Part shown: in pieces, positions 3,372-27,597 of the stretch
Layout of the letters: each line of letters starts with the position of its first letter
Numbering within the stretch: position 1 is the stretch's first letter
NCBI RefSeq assembly: GCF_037042905.1
Contig: NC_087246.1
Coordinates: forward strand, 13,716,233 to 13,780,232
Direction of reading: 5' to 3'
Source of the DNA: Lytechinus pictus
Lineage: Eukaryota
Length of the DNA: 64,000 bases
The notes under the pieces: model-generated
What the model saw: only the letters and a program-made list of their open reading frames with translations
Databases searched by the model: none
Told to the model about the DNA's origin: nothing
Translations under genes and position numbers: made by a program

Positions 3372-4536
3372 TTAATTCATATTTGAGCTGTTTGATCCTA
3401 AGCGACTCAAATGCAGCCCATTTCCCTCCTTGCTCAACCGAGTAGAACGGGTCTGAAGAGAATCATGGGTTTTCCCTTTAGTCTTATTACCTTCAAGGTA
3501 GTTAATGAAGGTATACAGGACAGGGTTGATAGAGGAATTGATTGGGATGATGAAAATTACAGTCCAGGCATATAGGGAGGTCGGTAGAACGACGAGTCCG
3601 GTTTGCGTCAAGATACCCAAAACTATGATGGGCATCCAACAAGCGAAGTCAGTCCCAACAATAAACGCCATCTTTCGGGCGATCTGGATTTCGCGATTTC
3701 TGCCCGCCGAGTTCCGGATGGACTCCGACGAGCGTTTAACGGTCACAAACATCACGACGTAGCAAATAAGGATGGTCAGGAAAAGTGCCATGTTCAAACC
3801 GATAAAGGTTACGATTGAGAATACCCAGACATTCCTGTTGTCGTAATCGGTAACTACGTACTTTACAATGTATTCGGAACTCAGCTCCTCGTCCCAGACA
3901 ATGTCCAGTCTGCCAGTCTCTCCGAGTTCTACATGGAGCGGTAAACCGATACAGACATCGGATAGTCCATAGAACCCGGGTACGTTATATCCGACAAGGA
4001 ATGGAACCGAGCTAAACAAGAGAGTGAAGAACCATGTGAATACGACGGCGAAGCTGGCAGTTTTGGTAGTCATCTTGAATTTTCCAAAGGGATAAACAAT
4101 GCTGATGTACCTATCCAGGGTGATTAGGGTCAGTGTGAATACGGACAGTTCGCTCGAGAAAAATGCAAGAAATGAGGATAATTTACAAGGGAAGGATTCT
4201 CTCCAGAGCGGGGCACTAAGGAAATATAGTCTATTGAAATAAACATCAGCAGATGTTATGATGATCATATAAACACCCATCAGGGAGTCTGCGACGGCTA
4301 GGTTCATTGTGAGGATGTTCTGGACGGTCTTGCGTTGTTTCTGGGTAGCGCGCAGAAATAAGACGAACACATTCCCACATAGAGAAGAGAGGCCGATGAT
4401 CCAACCGGCAAATCGCAGGACGGTACTTGGGTACAAGCTGCCGCAGGTGTCCAGGGGACTTGGTGGAGAAGTCCTGGCACAGGTGACGTTTTCAGAATGA
4501 CTGAGAAGACAACAGAGGCGGTTGTCAGATGTAGAC
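3372..4536 (-). CDS. LGR terminal exon: Cys-rich hinge, rhodopsin-like 7TM domain and C-terminal tail, stop at 3372-3374
   Basis: Acceptor tgtttctgacag at 4537. The hinge reads STSDNRLCCLLSHSENVTCARTSPPSPLDTCGS. TM1 reads GWIIGLSSLCGNVFVLFL. A LITLDRYISIVYP (DRY) motif follows TM3, FACWMP (CWxP) sits in TM6 and NPVLY (NPxxY) in TM7. This matches ORF 3372..4436(-), extended 5' in frame to the splice acceptor. Confidence 0.9.
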
Positions 4537-5600
4537 CTGTCAGAAACAGATTAAACAATATGAAACCAGAATCGATTAAATGTCAGCTTAAGTGGATGAT
4601 TCATGGTTATACTATGCCTGTACCAACGTCAAACAAGAATATGTAGATATGTATTTCTCAAGTGGTCTTTCTCAGCTTTCAGTGGGGAAAATAAGTATTC
4701 CTTTCATAGACGTTGCTTATAGATAGTCAGGGAATAGTACCGTGGAAGTTTACTATCTTGAATCAGTTTGTATTGTATGTTTTTGAGCCTAACATGGTAA
4801 ACATTTATTGTTTGGGTTTATCATTTAATTTTGATGGTATTTCTACTCTTCTGTATGATATTGCTCTATCCTATTGCCAATAAGCAATTCAAGTCTACAT
4901 AGATAATTTAATTATTACTATTATTTTTTTATGTTAAAGTGGATACAATCTAATATATATTTCTTAGATTCCAAGTTACTCTAAGCTAAAGAATAAAAAA
5001 CAACCCCAGGTATCATAAAAAATAGAATACTCAGACCTCGAAAGAACACACCCAAAAGATGTGATGCTTCTACCAAAATCTAGCAAATTCAGATACCCAT
5101 GGGTACAAAAATATTTGAACTTGAATATATTCTCATCATGACCGATGGTTTTGTAGCTGCTTTCTTTTCTAATGATTTCCCATACTTTTCATTTGCCTAC
5201 CTCACTTACCCATTTTATTTCCAGCCTTAGTTTAGACTGATTCTCAATGGTAACATATTGCCTACTGTATTATGCTTGTACTCTCACAGGAATTTGTATT
5301 TTTGTATCATTCCGTCTATGTTTTCATGTACAATCATTTTTATTTTGTAAACTCAATGTGAAAACGATTTCTTAAACGAAAAATAACATGTATTCAATTC
5401 AATGACCAACGGTGTCGCTGTGACAAAAAAATCTCGATACACAAATGGGAACATTGTCAAAATCCGTTTATTTGAGTAATGTTAATTACATATCAATAAT
5501 TTAAACCAAATATCAAAATATCGCAGCTTTTAACAAACAATTGCCACTTTAACAAATACTATACTGTTAAATATTCCATGTCTCCTACACGAAAACTTAC

Positions 5601-5672
5601 AGAGCTTTGAGTCCAGTTAGATCGTTCATGATTTCGTAGGAAATTGTGTCTAAATCAAGGTCCAATAGAAAT
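5601..5672 (-). CDS. LGR LRR exon (last LRR)
   Basis: Acceptor ttttcttcag, donor GTAAGT. Encodes FLLDLDLDTISYEIMNDLTGLKA(L). Confidence 0.75.
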
Positions 5673-6196
5673 CTGAAGAAAACAGAATATAATAGAATGG
5701 TATTGATCTACTTTTCATATATATTTTATATCAAACAATATTTAATGCTGAAAATATATATTAATTCATAATTCACATTTCATGTAAATCTTGTTAATCG
5801 TGATAGCTTAACAAAATACAGTTTTCTTTATGTTTATATGAAATTCACACATTGTTACTAATGATGGCAATAAGGGAATAAGAATATCATGAGATCGGAA
5901 AATTGTTGTAAAATCAAAATATCATGTAAGTTCATATATAGTGTACTTTTAAGAAGTATGCTCTCGATTTCTAAGAGTTAAAAATATACTACGTATGCCA
6001 TTCGTATGATTTTCCCACCTGGTTCCTGTTGCATAAAAAAACTTTTGCCAAAAAAACTCTGGAAAATAAACAAAATTATGCCATTGGCACTTAACATATT
6101 GAGAAAATGGCAAAAAAGTATGCAACACGCCTCTGGTGTTGATACGTATTTCGTTTAAACTGATAATTAAAAGATAACAACGAGAACAATACTCAC

Positions 6197-6268
6197 AGAT
6201 AGAGTAGGTTACTCAGATTTGCGAATGATTCAGATTCGATACTCTTGATCTTGTTGTACCCCAAGTCT
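6197..6268 (-). CDS. LGR LRR exon
   Basis: Acceptor tttgcacag, donor GTGAGT. Encodes DLGYNKIKSIESESFANLSNLLY(L). Confidence 0.8.
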
Positions 6269-6682
6269 CTGTGCAAATAGAAATAAAACCGAGATGTTTA
6301 CATTTGGCAGCACCATGCATCCAGTCTCCTCTTTACACTGTTATTTTCATCAGTTTCATTTGTTGTTGTTTGTTTGTTTTGCTTTCATCATCGTCACAAA
6401 TCTTTTCATTAGCATCGTCATCTCCTTCGTGATCATGCTTTTTATCATATTAATGTTATCATTATCACTTCATATTTTAAACAGAAATTATATTTAGGAA
6501 GTGTTTCATTTCGTATACTGTACAATTATGATATTGATGGTAGCTAACGAGTATAATATTTGGAAAACATTCTACTTGTCAATACACGTTGCCTCTTTAC
6601 TTAAATAAGAACATTGATTCATGGCATATAGTGCATATTCACAATAAGAAATGTAATTCTGCTTAGATAGAGAGGCACTTAC

Positions 6683-25488: not shown

Positions 25489-25821
25489 TCCCAGTTTTGC
25501 ATTTTACTGTTGCATCTTGTGTGTGATTGCAGTTGTAAACTCCAAAACCAGAATGTGGACAATCAAGCAGGATAGATTCGTTTCCAAGACACTCTACTTC
25601 GTCCAAGAAAATGTCATCCAATCCCTCGTCAACATCATGGTAGTCCTGGAAACAACAATCATGGAAGGTGGTTACCTCAACAGCCTCACCTAGTCCTAGA
25701 CTTCTGCAGACCACATTGGCATCATCCATGTCCCAGTTATTGTCGCATACGGTTCCCCAGGAACCATCTTTGAATACTTCCACCTTTCCCTCCCAAGGAT
25801 ATCTTCCATCGACGAGACGAA
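25489..25821 (-). CDS. SRCR domain 2, single exon
   Basis: Acceptor cactgtag. Encodes VRLVDGRYPWEGKVEVFKDGSWGTVCDNNWDMDDANVVCRSLGLGEAVEV...LDEVECLGNESILLDCPHSGFGVYNCNHTQDATVKCKTG. Donor GTAAGC, phase 1. Confidence 0.8.
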
Positions 25822-26768
25822 CTACAGTGTGAATAGGTCAAGAGAAAGAGGGAAAGGTCACTCTAACTTAGAAGCTTCATATAACTTCGCGTTAGGCGAT
25901 GTTTTGTTTCTTCCCATGCTTAACCTGAAAATGTTCATTTATGTAAAGTTATTTCTTTGTTCATTATTTTACTGAACTTTAAACTCCTTCACACTTTCAG
26001 GGCTGGTTAATTAGACCTGTTAGCACATTTCTTCAAAACTTTCAGCGCGTATTTAGCACATCTTACCAATTCCTTTCTTATATCGTCTAATCCTCCCCAT
26101 ATTCTCTTTTAAAATCACATTCTTCCGTGACTTATAAAAGTATTTATACTTATACGAAATCAATTACTTCATGAAAGGGTCATCTTCCAGTGTCGCCCGA
26201 GCCTTCTCATTGGAAAAAGCTGATAACCCTGACACACAATACCTTAGACCTAAGTCTTGTCTTTTCAGAACGTCTTGGTGTTACTGTCGCCTTTACAATA
26301 GTCATGCACTCTTAAAAAACAATGTGCTGATTAGAACCTTTCTTTGTCTCGTATTTGGAACCATAAAATGGTTCTTCAAAAATGGACCTATGATACGAAG
26401 CAATGGACATCCATTGTTAGATTATGAATTCACTAAAAAAAAACCTTAGCTTGTATAAAGAACCGTAGATGGTTCCTTGTAGAACGAACGGTTCTAGAAG
26501 ACTGGAACTAAAAGGTTTAAAATGCGGTACCTAAAAGTTTTTTTTTTATCTAAGAGTGTTATGTGGACTGTTTCTGATTTCGTTTATGTCTCTTTCATGC
26601 ATACCTCCAAGAACGTCCCTTACCAGGACGGATCCTGTGTTGAATTAACTTGGACTATAATGCACAAGACCGCTTCATAGTTACTTACGAGCAAAAATCA
26701 GCATTTACATTAACTTCGCACAAAATGGGTTATGAAGATTTTTTTTCATCCAGAAATTTAGTTGATAC

Positions 26769-26900
26769 CTGCACTTATAGAACAACGAACTCCTGCATCT
26801 TCATCGTGTTTGCAGTCATGAACTCCTACTCCACCGTGAATGCAATCCAAGATGGAGGATTCGTTCCCATAACATTCTACCGCGTCTAGGAGGATATCGC
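26769..26900 (-). CDS. SRCR domain 1, C-terminal half-exon
   Basis: Acceptor tatttcaaag. Encodes (G)[43 protein letters not shown]. Donor GTATCA, phase 1. Confidence 0.75.
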
Positions 26901-27408
26901 CTTTGAAATAAAAGAAATACAACCAAGAAAGAAAATGCATGTAGTACAAAACGTAATTCAAGGTCAGAGACACAAGACCATTCACGAGTGATGGATATTC
27001 ATGCAGCGCTTTCAAAGTTGTACATAGAATCACTACAGGATCTTGATCTTAAACGGAATTATATCTTAAAAGGGGATCAAGATTGTGAAGTCATGCATTA
27101 AGGCCAGTAGCATAATTGAAGGACTGTGATCTGTCGTGGTTTTAAGATAAGTCTTATTTTACACATGATTTATCAAACAAGTGTTCACATCATTATTTTT
27201 AGAAACAAATGTCAAAAATCATTTTGTTCGACAATGAATCTTAATATCATTAACGAAGATCTTTAGAATTATGTTGATATAGCATTTAAAGGTAATGAGT
27301 ATCTTCAAAAGAATTAACCTTTCATTAACAACTTAGTAAAAGGACAATATTCCGACATGCCACATGGCACCCTATAGCTACCCTCTGCATGCATTCATTT
27401 CATCTTAC

Positions 27409-27597
27409 CTGTGCCTTCACCAAACGGAGCTCCACTCAAAGCCGCCACAGAATATGCGTAACCCAGACTCATACAAACAACATGTGCATTGGCAAGATCC
27501 CATAAATCATCACATACTGTTCCCCATTCACCATCATGGAGTATTTCTACTCGGCCCTCCCAGGGCGTCAATCCACCAACCAGCCGTATAGACTTTA
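27409..27597 (-). CDS. SRCR domain 1, N-terminal half-exon
   Basis: Acceptor aaatgacag. Encodes (V)[63 protein letters not shown]. Donor GTAAGA, phase 1 at both ends. Confidence 0.8.

What the first reader, a model, noticed from the sequence alone, without database searches (positions are those of the whole stretch)
3372..27597. A multi-SRCR gene directly upstream of, and co-oriented with, a one-LRR-per-exon LGR GPCR: separate genes or a composite SRCR-LRR-7TM receptor?
The SRCR exons (27597-22981) and the LGR exons (19977-3372) are all on the minus strand with no intervening opposite-strand gene. Neither the LGR N-terminus (signal peptide, LRRNT cap) nor the SRCR 3' end could be identified.

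Phase analysis argues against a direct fusion: every SRCR exon and the 48-nt exon use phase-1 introns, while every LRR exon uses phase-2 introns. Joining them would need at least one bridging exon of length 3n+1.

An SRCR-LGR chimeric receptor would be a novel architecture. Tandem but separate genes is the conservative reading.
Basis: inference. Interest (0 to 1): 0.5.

Follow-up and report, generated by a model that had tools for sequence, protein, structure and literature searches.

The report
One sea-urchin SRCR–LRR–GPCR gene
The scavenger-receptor (SRCR) exons and the leucine-rich-repeat GPCR exons are most likely parts of one 25-exon Lytechinus pictus gene, a relaxin-receptor-like GPCR carrying four SRCR domains where such receptors normally carry an LDLa module; the newest RefSeq annotation already models it as one gene, but it has not been studied.

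Summary
Six phase-1 SRCR/48-nt exons (27597-22981) and the 72-nt phase-2 LRR exons plus a hinge/7TM exon (19977-3372) all lie on the minus strand.

The gap between them is not empty. It holds three more coding exons: 22607-22554, 22162-22105 and 21047-20973.

With one extra LRR exon (15508-15437) and a signal-peptide exon at 42571-42469, the chain gives a 1259-aa ORF. From residue 77 onwards it is 100% identical to RefSeq XP_063966265.1 ("relaxin receptor 2-like", Lytechinus pictus).

All exons are conserved in S. purpuratus (about 80% aa identity). The exons I could test are also conserved in L. variegatus (dN/dS 0.13). L. variegatus paralogues in a tandem cluster repeat the same SRCR → linker → LRR → 7TM order.

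The 7TM is closest to RXFP1. No LDLa or LRRNT domain is detectable.

Caveats: there is no transcript evidence here, and other RefSeq releases split the locus in two. Models with this architecture exist in databases, but I found no paper describing it.

The parts
42469..42571 (-). Exon 1: start codon and signal peptide (MFNMFFSLVSIVCLVFFAGNVNFTEALSINEEPR), with a phase-1 donor GTGAGA.
   Evidence: It is one of only two distinct ATG + hydrophobic + phase-1-donor candidates (four listed hits) in 27.6-45 kb. It aligns with the N-terminus of the S. purpuratus model P0365, with the exon end at the same residue. It is absent from the RefSeq L. pictus model, which starts at Met77.
27409..27597 (-). 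SRCR domain 1, first half (phase 1-1)
   Evidence: Pfam SRCR; borders; 76% aa identity to S. purpuratus
26769..26900 (-). SRCR domain 1, second half (phase 1-1)
25489..25821 (-). SRCR domain 2 (phase 1-1; has an insertion containing a CC pair)
24352..24660 (-). SRCR domain 3 (phase 1-1)
23395..23700 (-). SRCR domain 4 (phase 1-1)
22981..23028 (-). Linker exon L0, 48 nt, EDVCITGLCDINIFPK (phase 1-1)
   Evidence: Borders. Homologous exons follow the SRCR exons in the S. purpuratus orthologue and in L. variegatus paralogues.
22554..22607 (-). Bridging exon B1, 54 nt, GTGKCIPVVQDCFVDGTW (phase 1-1)
   Evidence: 72% aa identity to S. purpuratus; a paralogous exon with the same phases is in L004
22105..22162 (-). 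Bridging exon B2, 58 nt (3n+1), GLFCMPQRPSLHESAAIEC; this exon switches the intron phase from 1 to 2
   Evidence: 84% aa identity to S. purpuratus; the paralogous exon in L004 has the same 1→2 phases
20973..21047 (-). Bridging exon B3, 75 nt, MGLEDYKSENMTRQIILDRQRNVKNL (phase 2-2); probably a partial first LRR
   Evidence: conserved with its splice sites in L. variegatus; 80% aa identity to S. purpuratus
19906..19977 (-). LRR exon 1 (72 nt, phase 2-2)
16667..16738 (-). LRR exon 2
16111..16182 (-). LRR exon 3
15437..15508 (-). LRR exon 3b (ELNGAGIMSVSANSFEGLYNLQHL); divergent, and missed by my first profile
   Evidence: Present in P0361, P0365 and P0358; borders; conserved in L. variegatus and S. 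purpuratus
14204..14275 (-). LRR exon 4
13809..13880 (-). LRR exon 5
12972..13043 (-). LRR exon 6
12732..12803 (-). LRR exon 7
8241..8312 (-). LRR exon 8
7679..7750 (-). LRR exon 9
7055..7126 (-). LRR exon 10
6683..6754 (-). LRR exon 11
6197..6268 (-). LRR exon 12
5601..5672 (-). LRR exon 13
3372..4536 (-). Last exon: four-cysteine hinge, seven transmembrane helices (with DRY, CWMP and NPVLY), C-terminal tail and stop codon
   Evidence: Pfam 7tm_1; hydropathy and motifs; RXFP1 is the best solved relative

Best explanation
Minus strand 42571-3372 is one gene of 25 coding exons spanning about 39 kb in Lytechinus pictus.

It encodes a 1259-aa type-I-oriented rhodopsin-family GPCR. The domain order is: signal peptide, four six-cysteine SRCR domains, a 79-residue cysteine-rich linker (exons L0, B1, B2, B3), 14 one-per-exon LRRs, a four-cysteine hinge, and a 7TM domain.

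It is a relaxin-receptor/GRL101-like (type C-like) LGR in which the N-terminal LDLa module is replaced by an SRCR array. The array was probably acquired by shuffling of phase 1-1 exons.

The gene is one unit of a tandem cluster of such genes in camarodont sea urchins.

Inferred mechanism (not shown): a macromolecular ligand is captured by the SRCR array and/or the concave LRR face. The signal passes through the hinge to a 7TM core that keeps the motifs needed for G-protein coupling.
For: **Continuity (shown)**
- All 25 exons have AG/GT borders and compatible phases, and give one ORF with no internal stop.
- B2 is the required 3n+1 phase-switch exon.

**Independent gene model (shown)**
- The spliced translation is identical from residue 77 to the end to RefSeq XP_063966265.1, 1183 aa, 'relaxin receptor 2-like' [L. 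pictus].

**Orthologue conservation (shown)**
- S. purpuratus models P0152 and P0358 run SRCR×4 – L0 – B1 – B2 – B3 – LRRs. P0365 runs signal peptide – SRCR×4 – B1 – B2 – LRRs – 7TM, omitting several exons including L0 and B3.
- The last exons of P0152 sit about 10 kb upstream of the S. purpuratus 7TM exon, with intact LRR exons in between.
- Per-exon aa identity is 56-88%, and the bridging exons B1-B3 are at 72-84%.
- L. variegatus keeps B3, all 14 LRR exons and the 7TM exon, without indels and with splice sites intact. Identity is 96.3% against about 87% for the locus overall. dN/dS is 0.127, and 0.119 for the part unannotated there.

**Paralogues (shown)**
- L. variegatus chromosome CM031016.1 carries repeated same-strand SRCR → LRR → 7TM units.
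- NCBI models there include 1201 aa (SRCR + LRR + 7tm_1) and 398 aa (SRCR + LRR).
- One unit has signal, SRCR, L0, B1 and B2 exons with the same phases.

**No separate start for the LGR part**
- There is no convincing LGR-specific start with a signal peptide between 23394 and 19978.
- The only conserved signal-peptide exon lies upstream of SRCR1.

**Receptor competence**
- Seven hydrophobic helices, DRY, CWMP and NPVLY are present.
- RXFP1 is the best solved relative for the 7TM alone (141 bits against about 108-110 for TSHR, FSHR and LHCGR) and for LRR + 7TM together.
Against: - No transcript evidence was available here. Every 'model' cited is a computational prediction, and I cannot see whether RNA-seq supports it.
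- Annotations disagree. An earlier L. pictus release, S. purpuratus 5.0 and L. variegatus 3.0 each split the locus into a 'DMBT1-like' SRCR protein and a 'GRL101-like' GPCR (P0364/P0362, P0356/P0003, P0360/P0001). The SRCR-only models end by read-through after L0 or B2.
- Exon 1 rests on an old S. purpuratus model plus sequence heuristics; tblastn E is 0.085 on its own.
- An in-frame ATG at 22677 upstream of B1 could in principle start an LGR-only product.
- Ligand, coupling and expression are unknown.
Confidence: 0.85

Rival explanations
1. There are two independent genes: a secreted multi-SRCR ('DMBT1-like') protein ending at or just after the 48-nt exon, and a downstream LGR with its own promoter and first exon. 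The composite models would then be read-through artefacts of gene prediction.
For: RefSeq S. purpuratus 5.0 (XP_030846933.1 and XP_030846934.1), L. variegatus (XP_041453752.1 and XP_041456566.1) and an older L. pictus release (XP_054775682.1 and XP_054775683.1) annotate the locus this way. There is an in-frame ATG at 22677 with a short hydrophobic stretch upstream of B1.
Against: - B1, B2 and B3 are conserved coding exons with a phase-1 entry that matches the exits of L0 and SRCR4.
- The split GPCR models start at internal methionines inside LRR exons. They leave conserved, selected LRR exons unannotated (dN/dS 0.119), so they are truncated rather than complete genes.
- The read-through tails after L0 differ in length and sequence between species (GKMSYDY…*, GKMRN*, GRKI*).
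- There is no AATAAA or ATTAAA in the 373-nt L0-B1 intron.
- The ATG-extended B1 is not open in the L. variegatus paralogue.
- No other signal-peptide exon was found.
Confidence: 0.07
2. Both products exist. The full-length composite receptor is made together with a short secreted SRCR-only isoform, produced by intron retention or intronic polyadenylation after L0. This would be analogous to soluble or truncated splice variants of RXFP1/2 and the glycoprotein-hormone receptors.
For: SRCR-only models ending right after L0 appear independently in S. purpuratus and L. variegatus RefSeq. Truncated LGR7/8 variants are documented in the literature (Scott et al. 2006, cited in PMC11863921).
Against: The read-through tail is not conserved, and no canonical poly(A) signal follows L0 in this window. 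The short models may simply reflect low RNA-seq coverage. No direct evidence exists either way.
Confidence: 0.25
3. The locus is a decaying or non-functional duplicate within a fast-evolving tandem cluster, so its architecture would have no functional meaning.
For: It belongs to a tandem family with variable numbers of SRCR and LRR exons. It is poorly and inconsistently annotated, which suggests low expression.
Against: - The 1259-codon ORF is intact across 25 exons.
- dN/dS is 0.127 against L. variegatus, with dS 0.12 close to intronic divergence.
- aa identity to S. purpuratus is 80%, with identical exon lengths.
- All GPCR motifs and SRCR cysteines are retained (and the sequence itself).
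Confidence: 0.03

Closest known systems
Relaxin-family receptors RXFP1/RXFP2 (type C1 LGRs)
   Same: - Best solved-structure match for both the LRR and 7TM parts (7tmw: E 5e-66 overall; 141 bits for the 7TM alone).
- An N-terminal module encoded by phase 1-1 exons, followed by a linker, one LRR per exon, a hinge and a rhodopsin-type 7TM.
- RefSeq names the gene 'relaxin receptor 2-like'.
   Different: - No LDLa module, which is the distinctive feature of type C LGRs (PMC11863921). Pfam finds none at E ≤ 10.
- Four SRCR domains and an unclassified six-cysteine linker take its place.
- 14 LRR exons.
- About 30 extra residues in extracellular loop 2.
- The ligand is unknown.
GRL101 (Lymnaea) and its bilaterian orthologues (type C2 LGRs)
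   Same: NCBI names the orthologues and paralogues 'GRL101-like'. It is a large ectodomain made of a repeated cysteine-rich module followed by LRRs and a 7TM.
   Different: GRL101 carries many LDLa repeats, not SRCR. Veenstra found a single true GRL101 orthologue per ambulacrarian species (PMC8286064), whereas this gene belongs to a tandemly expanded echinoid family. Orthology was not tested by phylogeny here.
Sea-star and brittle-star relatives of the same 7TM family (P0056 Patiria miniata, P0059 Amphiura filiformis)
   Same: About 40% identity in the hinge + 7TM, with the same hinge cysteine pattern and ECL2 features.
   Different: They have LDLa + a canonical LRRNT (CPxxCxC) + LRRs, i.e. 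the classical type C layout. The urchin gene has SRCRs and no recognisable LRRNT.
Multi-SRCR proteins (DMBT1/SSC5D-like; the large sea-urchin SRCR repertoire)
   Same: Four Pfam SRCR domains (E 6e-111 in total) with 45-53% identity to DMBT1-like proteins. Each domain is encoded by symmetric phase-1 exons.
   Different: Those proteins are secreted or single-pass. Here the SRCR array is spliced onto an LRR-7TM receptor.
Amphioxus adhesion GPCRs with SRCR domains
   Same: SRCR sits in the N-terminus of a GPCR; this is the only literature precedent I found (PMC2246102).
   Different: Those are adhesion-family (class B2) receptors with a GPS motif. This gene is a rhodopsin-family LGR.

Membership tests
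Rhodopsin-family GPCR (Pfam 7tm_1) | Significant 7tm_1 profile match | tested here: met
   E 3.7e-31 for the last exon alone and 1.8e-29 in the spliced protein, above the gathering score
Rhodopsin-family GPCR (Pfam 7tm_1) | Seven transmembrane helices with the D/ERY, CWxP and NPxxY microswitch motifs | tested here: met
   Seven hydrophobic segments, with DRY after TM3, CWMP in TM6 and NPVLY in TM7
Leucine-rich-repeat-containing GPCR (LGR) | LRR ectodomain joined through a cysteine-containing hinge to a δ-group rhodopsin-type 7TM, in one polypeptide | tested here: met
   LRR_8 E 4e-90 plus 7tm_1 in one ORF. The LRR13 → hinge/7TM junction is also used by the RefSeq models P0001 and P0361. The closest solved 7TMs are RXFP1, TSHR, FSHR and LHCGR.
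Leucine-rich-repeat-containing GPCR (LGR) | One LRR per 72-nt exon with phase-2 introns (gene structure typical of LGR genes; established knowledge) | tested here: met
   14 exons of exactly 72 nt, all phase 2-2
Type C LGR (relaxin/GRL101 type) | 7TM closest to relaxin-type receptors | tested here: met
   RXFP1 141 bits against about 108-110 bits for type A receptors. No phylogeny was made.
Type C LGR (relaxin/GRL101 type) | N-terminal LDLa module(s) | tested here: not met
   No Ldl_recept_a hit at E ≤ 10 in the full protein or in the linker of either species. Asterozoan relatives do have it.
Canonical LRR ectodomain | LRRNT cap (CxxCxC…) before the first LRR | tested here: inconclusive
   There is no Pfam LRRNT hit. 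hhalign against the asterozoan LRRNT region aligns only the LRR. The four cysteines in B1-B2 could form a divergent cap. The AF2 model is uninformative (pLDDT 35).
SRCR superfamily | SRCR profile match with the conserved cysteine framework | tested here: met
   Four stretches, E 6.3e-111. Each domain has six conserved cysteines, plus two extra in an insertion of domain 2 (read from the sequence).
Secretory/type-I membrane protein | N-terminal signal peptide | tested here: inconclusive
   The candidate exon 42571-42469 has a hydrophobic core and a phase-1 donor, and is homologous to the N-terminus of S. purpuratus P0365. No signal-peptide predictor or transcript was available.
Single transcription unit | One mRNA containing SRCR, linker, LRR and 7TM exons | not testable with these tools
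   Only computational models were available: P0361, P0365 and the 1201-aa L. variegatus paralogue. No RNA data were accessible.

The most novel reading that the evidence does not exclude
Camarodont sea urchins evolved, and tandemly expanded, a class of LGR-type GPCRs in which the activation-critical LDLa module of relaxin-type receptors was exchanged for an array of SRCR pattern-recognition domains. Scavenger-receptor-style recognition of microbial, polyanionic or self macromolecules would then be wired directly to heterotrimeric G-protein signalling, giving a previously undescribed type of innate-immune or chemosensory GPCR.
Probability: 0.3. Interest if true: 0.7.

Novelty: new variant of a known kind. 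Interest (0 to 1): 0.4.

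Why it matters
- **Mechanism.** If the composite is expressed, it shows that the N-terminal module of type C LGRs is exchangeable by exon shuffling. In RXFP1/2 that module is required for activation. This gives a natural experiment on how the N-terminal module, LRRs and hinge cooperate to activate the 7TM.
- **Biology.** It links two families that are famously expanded in sea urchins (SRCR and LRR proteins) to G-protein signalling. 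It is therefore a candidate immune or chemosensory receptor family.
- **Annotation.** The locus is split or truncated in S. purpuratus 5.0 and L. variegatus 3.0. Even the best L. pictus model lacks its signal-peptide exon. SRCR and GPCR gene counts, and expression analyses for this cluster, are therefore unreliable.

Tried and rejected
- **Linker search.** A word-indexed protein search with the linker alone returned nothing, not even P0152. This is a limit of the index, not evidence. The exhaustive HMMER search with a two-species linker profile found only P0152 for the cysteine-rich part. All other hits matched only the LRR end and were generic LRR, TIR or kinase proteins.
- **LDLa relic idea.** The 'GKCIPVVQDC' stretch looks like an LDLa core by eye. 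I rejected this because Pfam gives no Ldl_recept_a hit at E ≤ 10, and the cysteine spacing after it does not fit.
- **LRRNT homology.** Profile-profile comparison with sea-star and brittle-star caps aligned only the LRR.
- **Structure prediction.** The S. purpuratus orthologue with an 8-sequence alignment gave pLDDT 35, which is unusable, so no fold search was run.
- **Other candidate first exons.** 27956-27857 has a weak GTTAAT donor, and its MKFSA… peptide recurs elsewhere in the window, so it looks repeat-derived. The in-frame ATGs upstream of B1 (22677) and B2 (22217) have weak or no signal-peptide character. Only the B1 extension could be checked in the L. variegatus paralogue, where it is closed by a stop codon.
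- **Unavailable loci.** The genomic loci for P0004 and P0152 are not on record. The S. purpuratus bridging-exon DNA and the L. variegatus SRCR region could therefore not be examined.
- **My first exon set** missed LRR3b (7 bits). It was corrected after comparison with P0361.
- **Literature.** Searches for SRCR + LGR/GPCR in echinoderms found no description of this architecture. Whittaker et al. 2006 could not be retrieved. Raible et al. 2006 is cited for the surreal-GPCRs, but I did not try to retrieve it.

Full report
**1. Observation**

The window is sea-urchin DNA. Pfam recognises SRCR in five minus-strand ORFs between 27673 and 23270, and 7tm_1 in the ORF 4436-3372.

I re-derived the exon borders from the sequence. 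Five SRCR exons encode four domains, the first split in two, and they are followed by a 48-nt exon. The coordinates are 27597-27409, 26900-26769, 25821-25489, 24660-24352, 23700-23395 and 23028-22981. All have AG/GT borders, lengths divisible by three and phase 1 on both sides.

Thirteen 72-nt LRR exons between 19977 and 5601 have strong splice sites and phase-2 introns. A profile built from them scores 27-43 bits at exactly these sites and at most 12 bits elsewhere on either strand.

**2. The gap is not empty**

A search with the SRCR + LRR translation returned the S. purpuratus model XP_011673027.1 (P0152, 578 aa). It carries both SRCR and LRR Pfam domains and shares 68% identity over 81% of the query.

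Its sequence runs: four SRCRs, then EDVCITGLC…, GTGICIPAVQDCF…, LFCMPPRPSLHESATVECM, …ENMTRQIILDHQRNVKNL, then LRR1-3. It maps collinearly onto the window's minus strand.

This identified three new exons:
- B1, 22607-22554 (54 nt, phase 1-1)
- B2, 22162-22105 (58 nt, phase 1 to 2)
- B3, 21047-20973 (75 nt, phase 2-2)

All have canonical splice sites.

**3. Identity with a RefSeq model, and completion of the gene**

The 90% cluster of the L. variegatus hit P0001 contains XP_063966265.1, 'relaxin receptor 2-like' [Lytechinus pictus], 1183 aa (P0361).

Comparison with it revealed a divergent LRR exon I had missed, at 15508-15437. With that exon added, my spliced CDS is 100% identical to P0361 from residue 77 to the stop. 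The window is therefore L. pictus, and the current RefSeq release already treats SRCR and LGR exons as one gene.

That model starts at an internal methionine inside SRCR1. An independent scan listed four hits upstream of 27597 that combine an ATG, a hydrophobic core and a phase-1 donor. Two of them share the exon ending at 42469 (start codons at 42571 and 42562), one begins at 27956, and one starts at 27673 and overlaps the SRCR1a exon itself, so only two are distinct candidate first exons.

The candidate at 42571-42469 reads MFNMFFSLVSIVCLVFFAGNVNFTEALSINEEPR. It aligns with the N-terminus of an older S. purpuratus composite model (P0365, 1132 aa: …VCLVFCAGNF…FTESLSLNSAKR|EASVRLVGG), with the exon end at the same residue.

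The complete CDS is then 25 exons, 3780 nt and 1259 aa, spanning 42571-3372.

**4. Conservation**

*L. variegatus.* The locus L001 reaches window position 21528. It keeps B3, all 14 LRR exons and the 7TM exon, without indels and with splice sites intact.
- Exon identity is 96.3%, against about 87% for the aligned locus overall.
- dS is 0.12 and dN/dS is 0.127.
- dN/dS is 0.119 for B3-LRR8, exons that no L. variegatus gene model includes.

*S. purpuratus.* The LRR2 and LRR3 exons of P0152 lie at L003:241-660, about 10 kb upstream of the 7TM exon of XP_030846934.1. Ten LRR exons (LRR4-LRR13) lie between them as intact 72-nt AG/GT exons, and LRR3b is also present.
- Exon-by-exon aa identity to the window is 56-88% (80% overall), with no length differences from L0 to LRR13.
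- The bridging exons B1, B2 and B3 are at 72-84%, the same range as the domain exons.

Unconstrained sequence is not expected to stay alignable between these two genera. This is established knowledge from sea-urchin phylogenetic footprinting. The bridging exons are therefore coding.

**5. Paralogues**

On L. variegatus chromosome CM031016.1 (72.21-72.31 Mb), same-strand units of SRCR → LRR → 7TM recur.
- NCBI models there include a 1201-aa product with SRCR, LRR and 7tm_1 domains.
- There is also a 398-aa product with SRCR + LRR.
- The L. pictus paralogue P0004 has all three domain types.
- One L. variegatus unit shows a signal-peptide exon with a phase-1 donor, an SRCR exon, and L0-, B1- and B2-like exons with the same phases (1-1, 1-1, 1→2).

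The architecture is thus a family trait that has been duplicated as a unit.

**6. The rival reading**

Annotation is inconsistent. An older L. pictus release, S. purpuratus 5.0 and L. variegatus 3.0 each split the locus into a 'DMBT1-like' SRCR protein and a 'GRL101-like' GPCR.

The split GPCR models begin at internal methionines inside LRR exons and omit conserved, selected exons. They are truncations.

The SRCR-only models end by reading through the donor of L0 or B2.
- The read-through tails are not conserved (GKMSYDY…*, GKMRN*, GRKI*).
- The 373-nt L0-B1 intron of the window has no AATAAA or ATTAAA.

Between SRCR4 and LRR1 the only start-like features are in-frame ATGs in the intron ends upstream of B1 (22677) and B2 (22217). 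Both have weak or no signal-peptide character. The corresponding stretch upstream of B1 is closed by a stop codon in the L. variegatus paralogue.

I therefore give the single-gene reading about 0.85. An additional SRCR-only short isoform remains possible. No RNA data were available to me, so transcript continuity is inferred, not shown.

**7. What kind of receptor**

- The spliced protein has four SRCR stretches (E 6e-111), LRR_8 (E 4e-90) and 7tm_1.
- It has seven hydrophobic helices and DRY, CWMP and NPVLY.
- Among solved structures RXFP1 is the best match, both for LRR + 7TM (E 5e-66) and for the 7TM alone (141 bits against about 108-110 for TSHR, FSHR and LHCGR).
- Sea-star and brittle-star relatives of the same 7TM family have LDLa + LRRNT + LRR + 7TM. 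An LDLa module is described as the distinctive feature of type C LGRs (PMC11863921).
- No LDLa or LRRNT is detectable here.
- The six-cysteine linker has no relative other than its S. purpuratus orthologue among 1.84 billion representatives. It does not align with asterozoan caps.
- AF2 was uninformative.

It works like a type C LGR but fails that family's defining N-terminal feature. It is best called an SRCR-bearing LGR variant.

**8. Mechanism (inferred)**

The signal peptide directs the roughly 850-residue ectodomain outside the cell. SRCR domains and/or the LRR solenoid bind a macromolecular ligand. The conserved four-cysteine hinge and the long ECL2 (about 30 residues longer than in RXFP1) relay binding to a 7TM that retains the G-protein-coupling microswitches.

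By analogy with RXFP1/2, where the N-terminal module is needed for activation (literature cited), the SRCR array and linker may be more than a passive ligand trap.

Ligand, G-protein and tissue are unknown.

**9. Novelty**

SRCR domains have been reported in amphioxus adhesion GPCRs, described there as unique among GPCRs (PMC2246102). My searches found no paper describing an SRCR-LGR. Key subscription papers on the sea-urchin GPCR and adhesion repertoires were not readable.

The architecture is present in automated gene models, so the locus itself is not new to databases. As a receptor type it is an undescribed variant of a known kind.

Noticed in passing
window 47506-52286 (+): A cathepsin-D-like aspartyl protease gene lies on the plus strand. 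It has Pfam Asp hits and both active-site motifs ([10 protein letters not shown] at about 47.56 kb, ADTGTS at about 51.15 kb). It lies head-to-head with exon 1 of the receptor gene (42571-42469). Its own first exons were not located.
   Followed up: partly
window 29569-30294 (+), 29557-29722: A reverse-transcriptase fragment (Pfam RVT_1, E 4e-16) from a retrotransposon sits inside the 14.9-kb first intron, on the opposite strand. An 88-nt ×1.9 tandem repeat is at its 5' edge.
   Followed up: no
window 44029-44852: Two 300-nt direct-repeat copies, 99% identical and spaced 524 nt start-to-start, lie between exon 1 of the receptor gene and the aspartyl protease gene.
   Followed up: no
window 10000-12000, 11123-11289: A GC-rich stretch (46% against about 33% elsewhere), with strong positive GC and AT skew, lies in the 4.4-kb LRR7-LRR8 intron. 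It contains a 33-nt ×5 tandem repeat and long ORFs without Pfam hits. It is probably a repeat element.
   Followed up: no
window 27472 (Met77 of the full CDS): RefSeq XP_063966265.1 starts at an internal methionine inside SRCR domain 1. It lacks the signal-peptide exon and the first 42 residues of SRCR1. The model is N-terminally truncated.
   Followed up: yes
L001:1113-9460 (L. variegatus CM031016.1): Exons B3 and LRR1-LRR8 are conserved and under purifying selection (dN/dS 0.119), yet they belong to no gene in the L. variegatus annotation on record. The annotated GPCR model (XP_041456566.1) starts at a methionine inside LRR9.
   Followed up: yes
S. purpuratus proteins P0152/P0356/P0365 versus P0358/P0355/P0357: There are two slightly different versions of the SRCR-linker part (about 95% identical, e.g. 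DDLWDLV against DDSWDLV). They could be haplotypes or a very recent duplicate of the gene in S. purpuratus.
   Followed up: no
window about 3800-3900 (extracellular loop 2 of the 7TM exon): ECL2 carries about 30 extra residues relative to RXFP1 (LGETGRLDIVWDEELSSEYIVKYVVTDYDN). The feature is shared by the echinoderm 'GRL101-like' family consensus.
   Followed up: no
window 28028-27855 (-), 14577-14449 (-), 28394-28453 (+): A recurring peptide-like motif (…MKFSA[LF]C… / MKFSVLC…) appears in several introns and flanks. This suggests a dispersed short repeat, and it produced a false signal-peptide candidate at 27956.
   Followed up: partly
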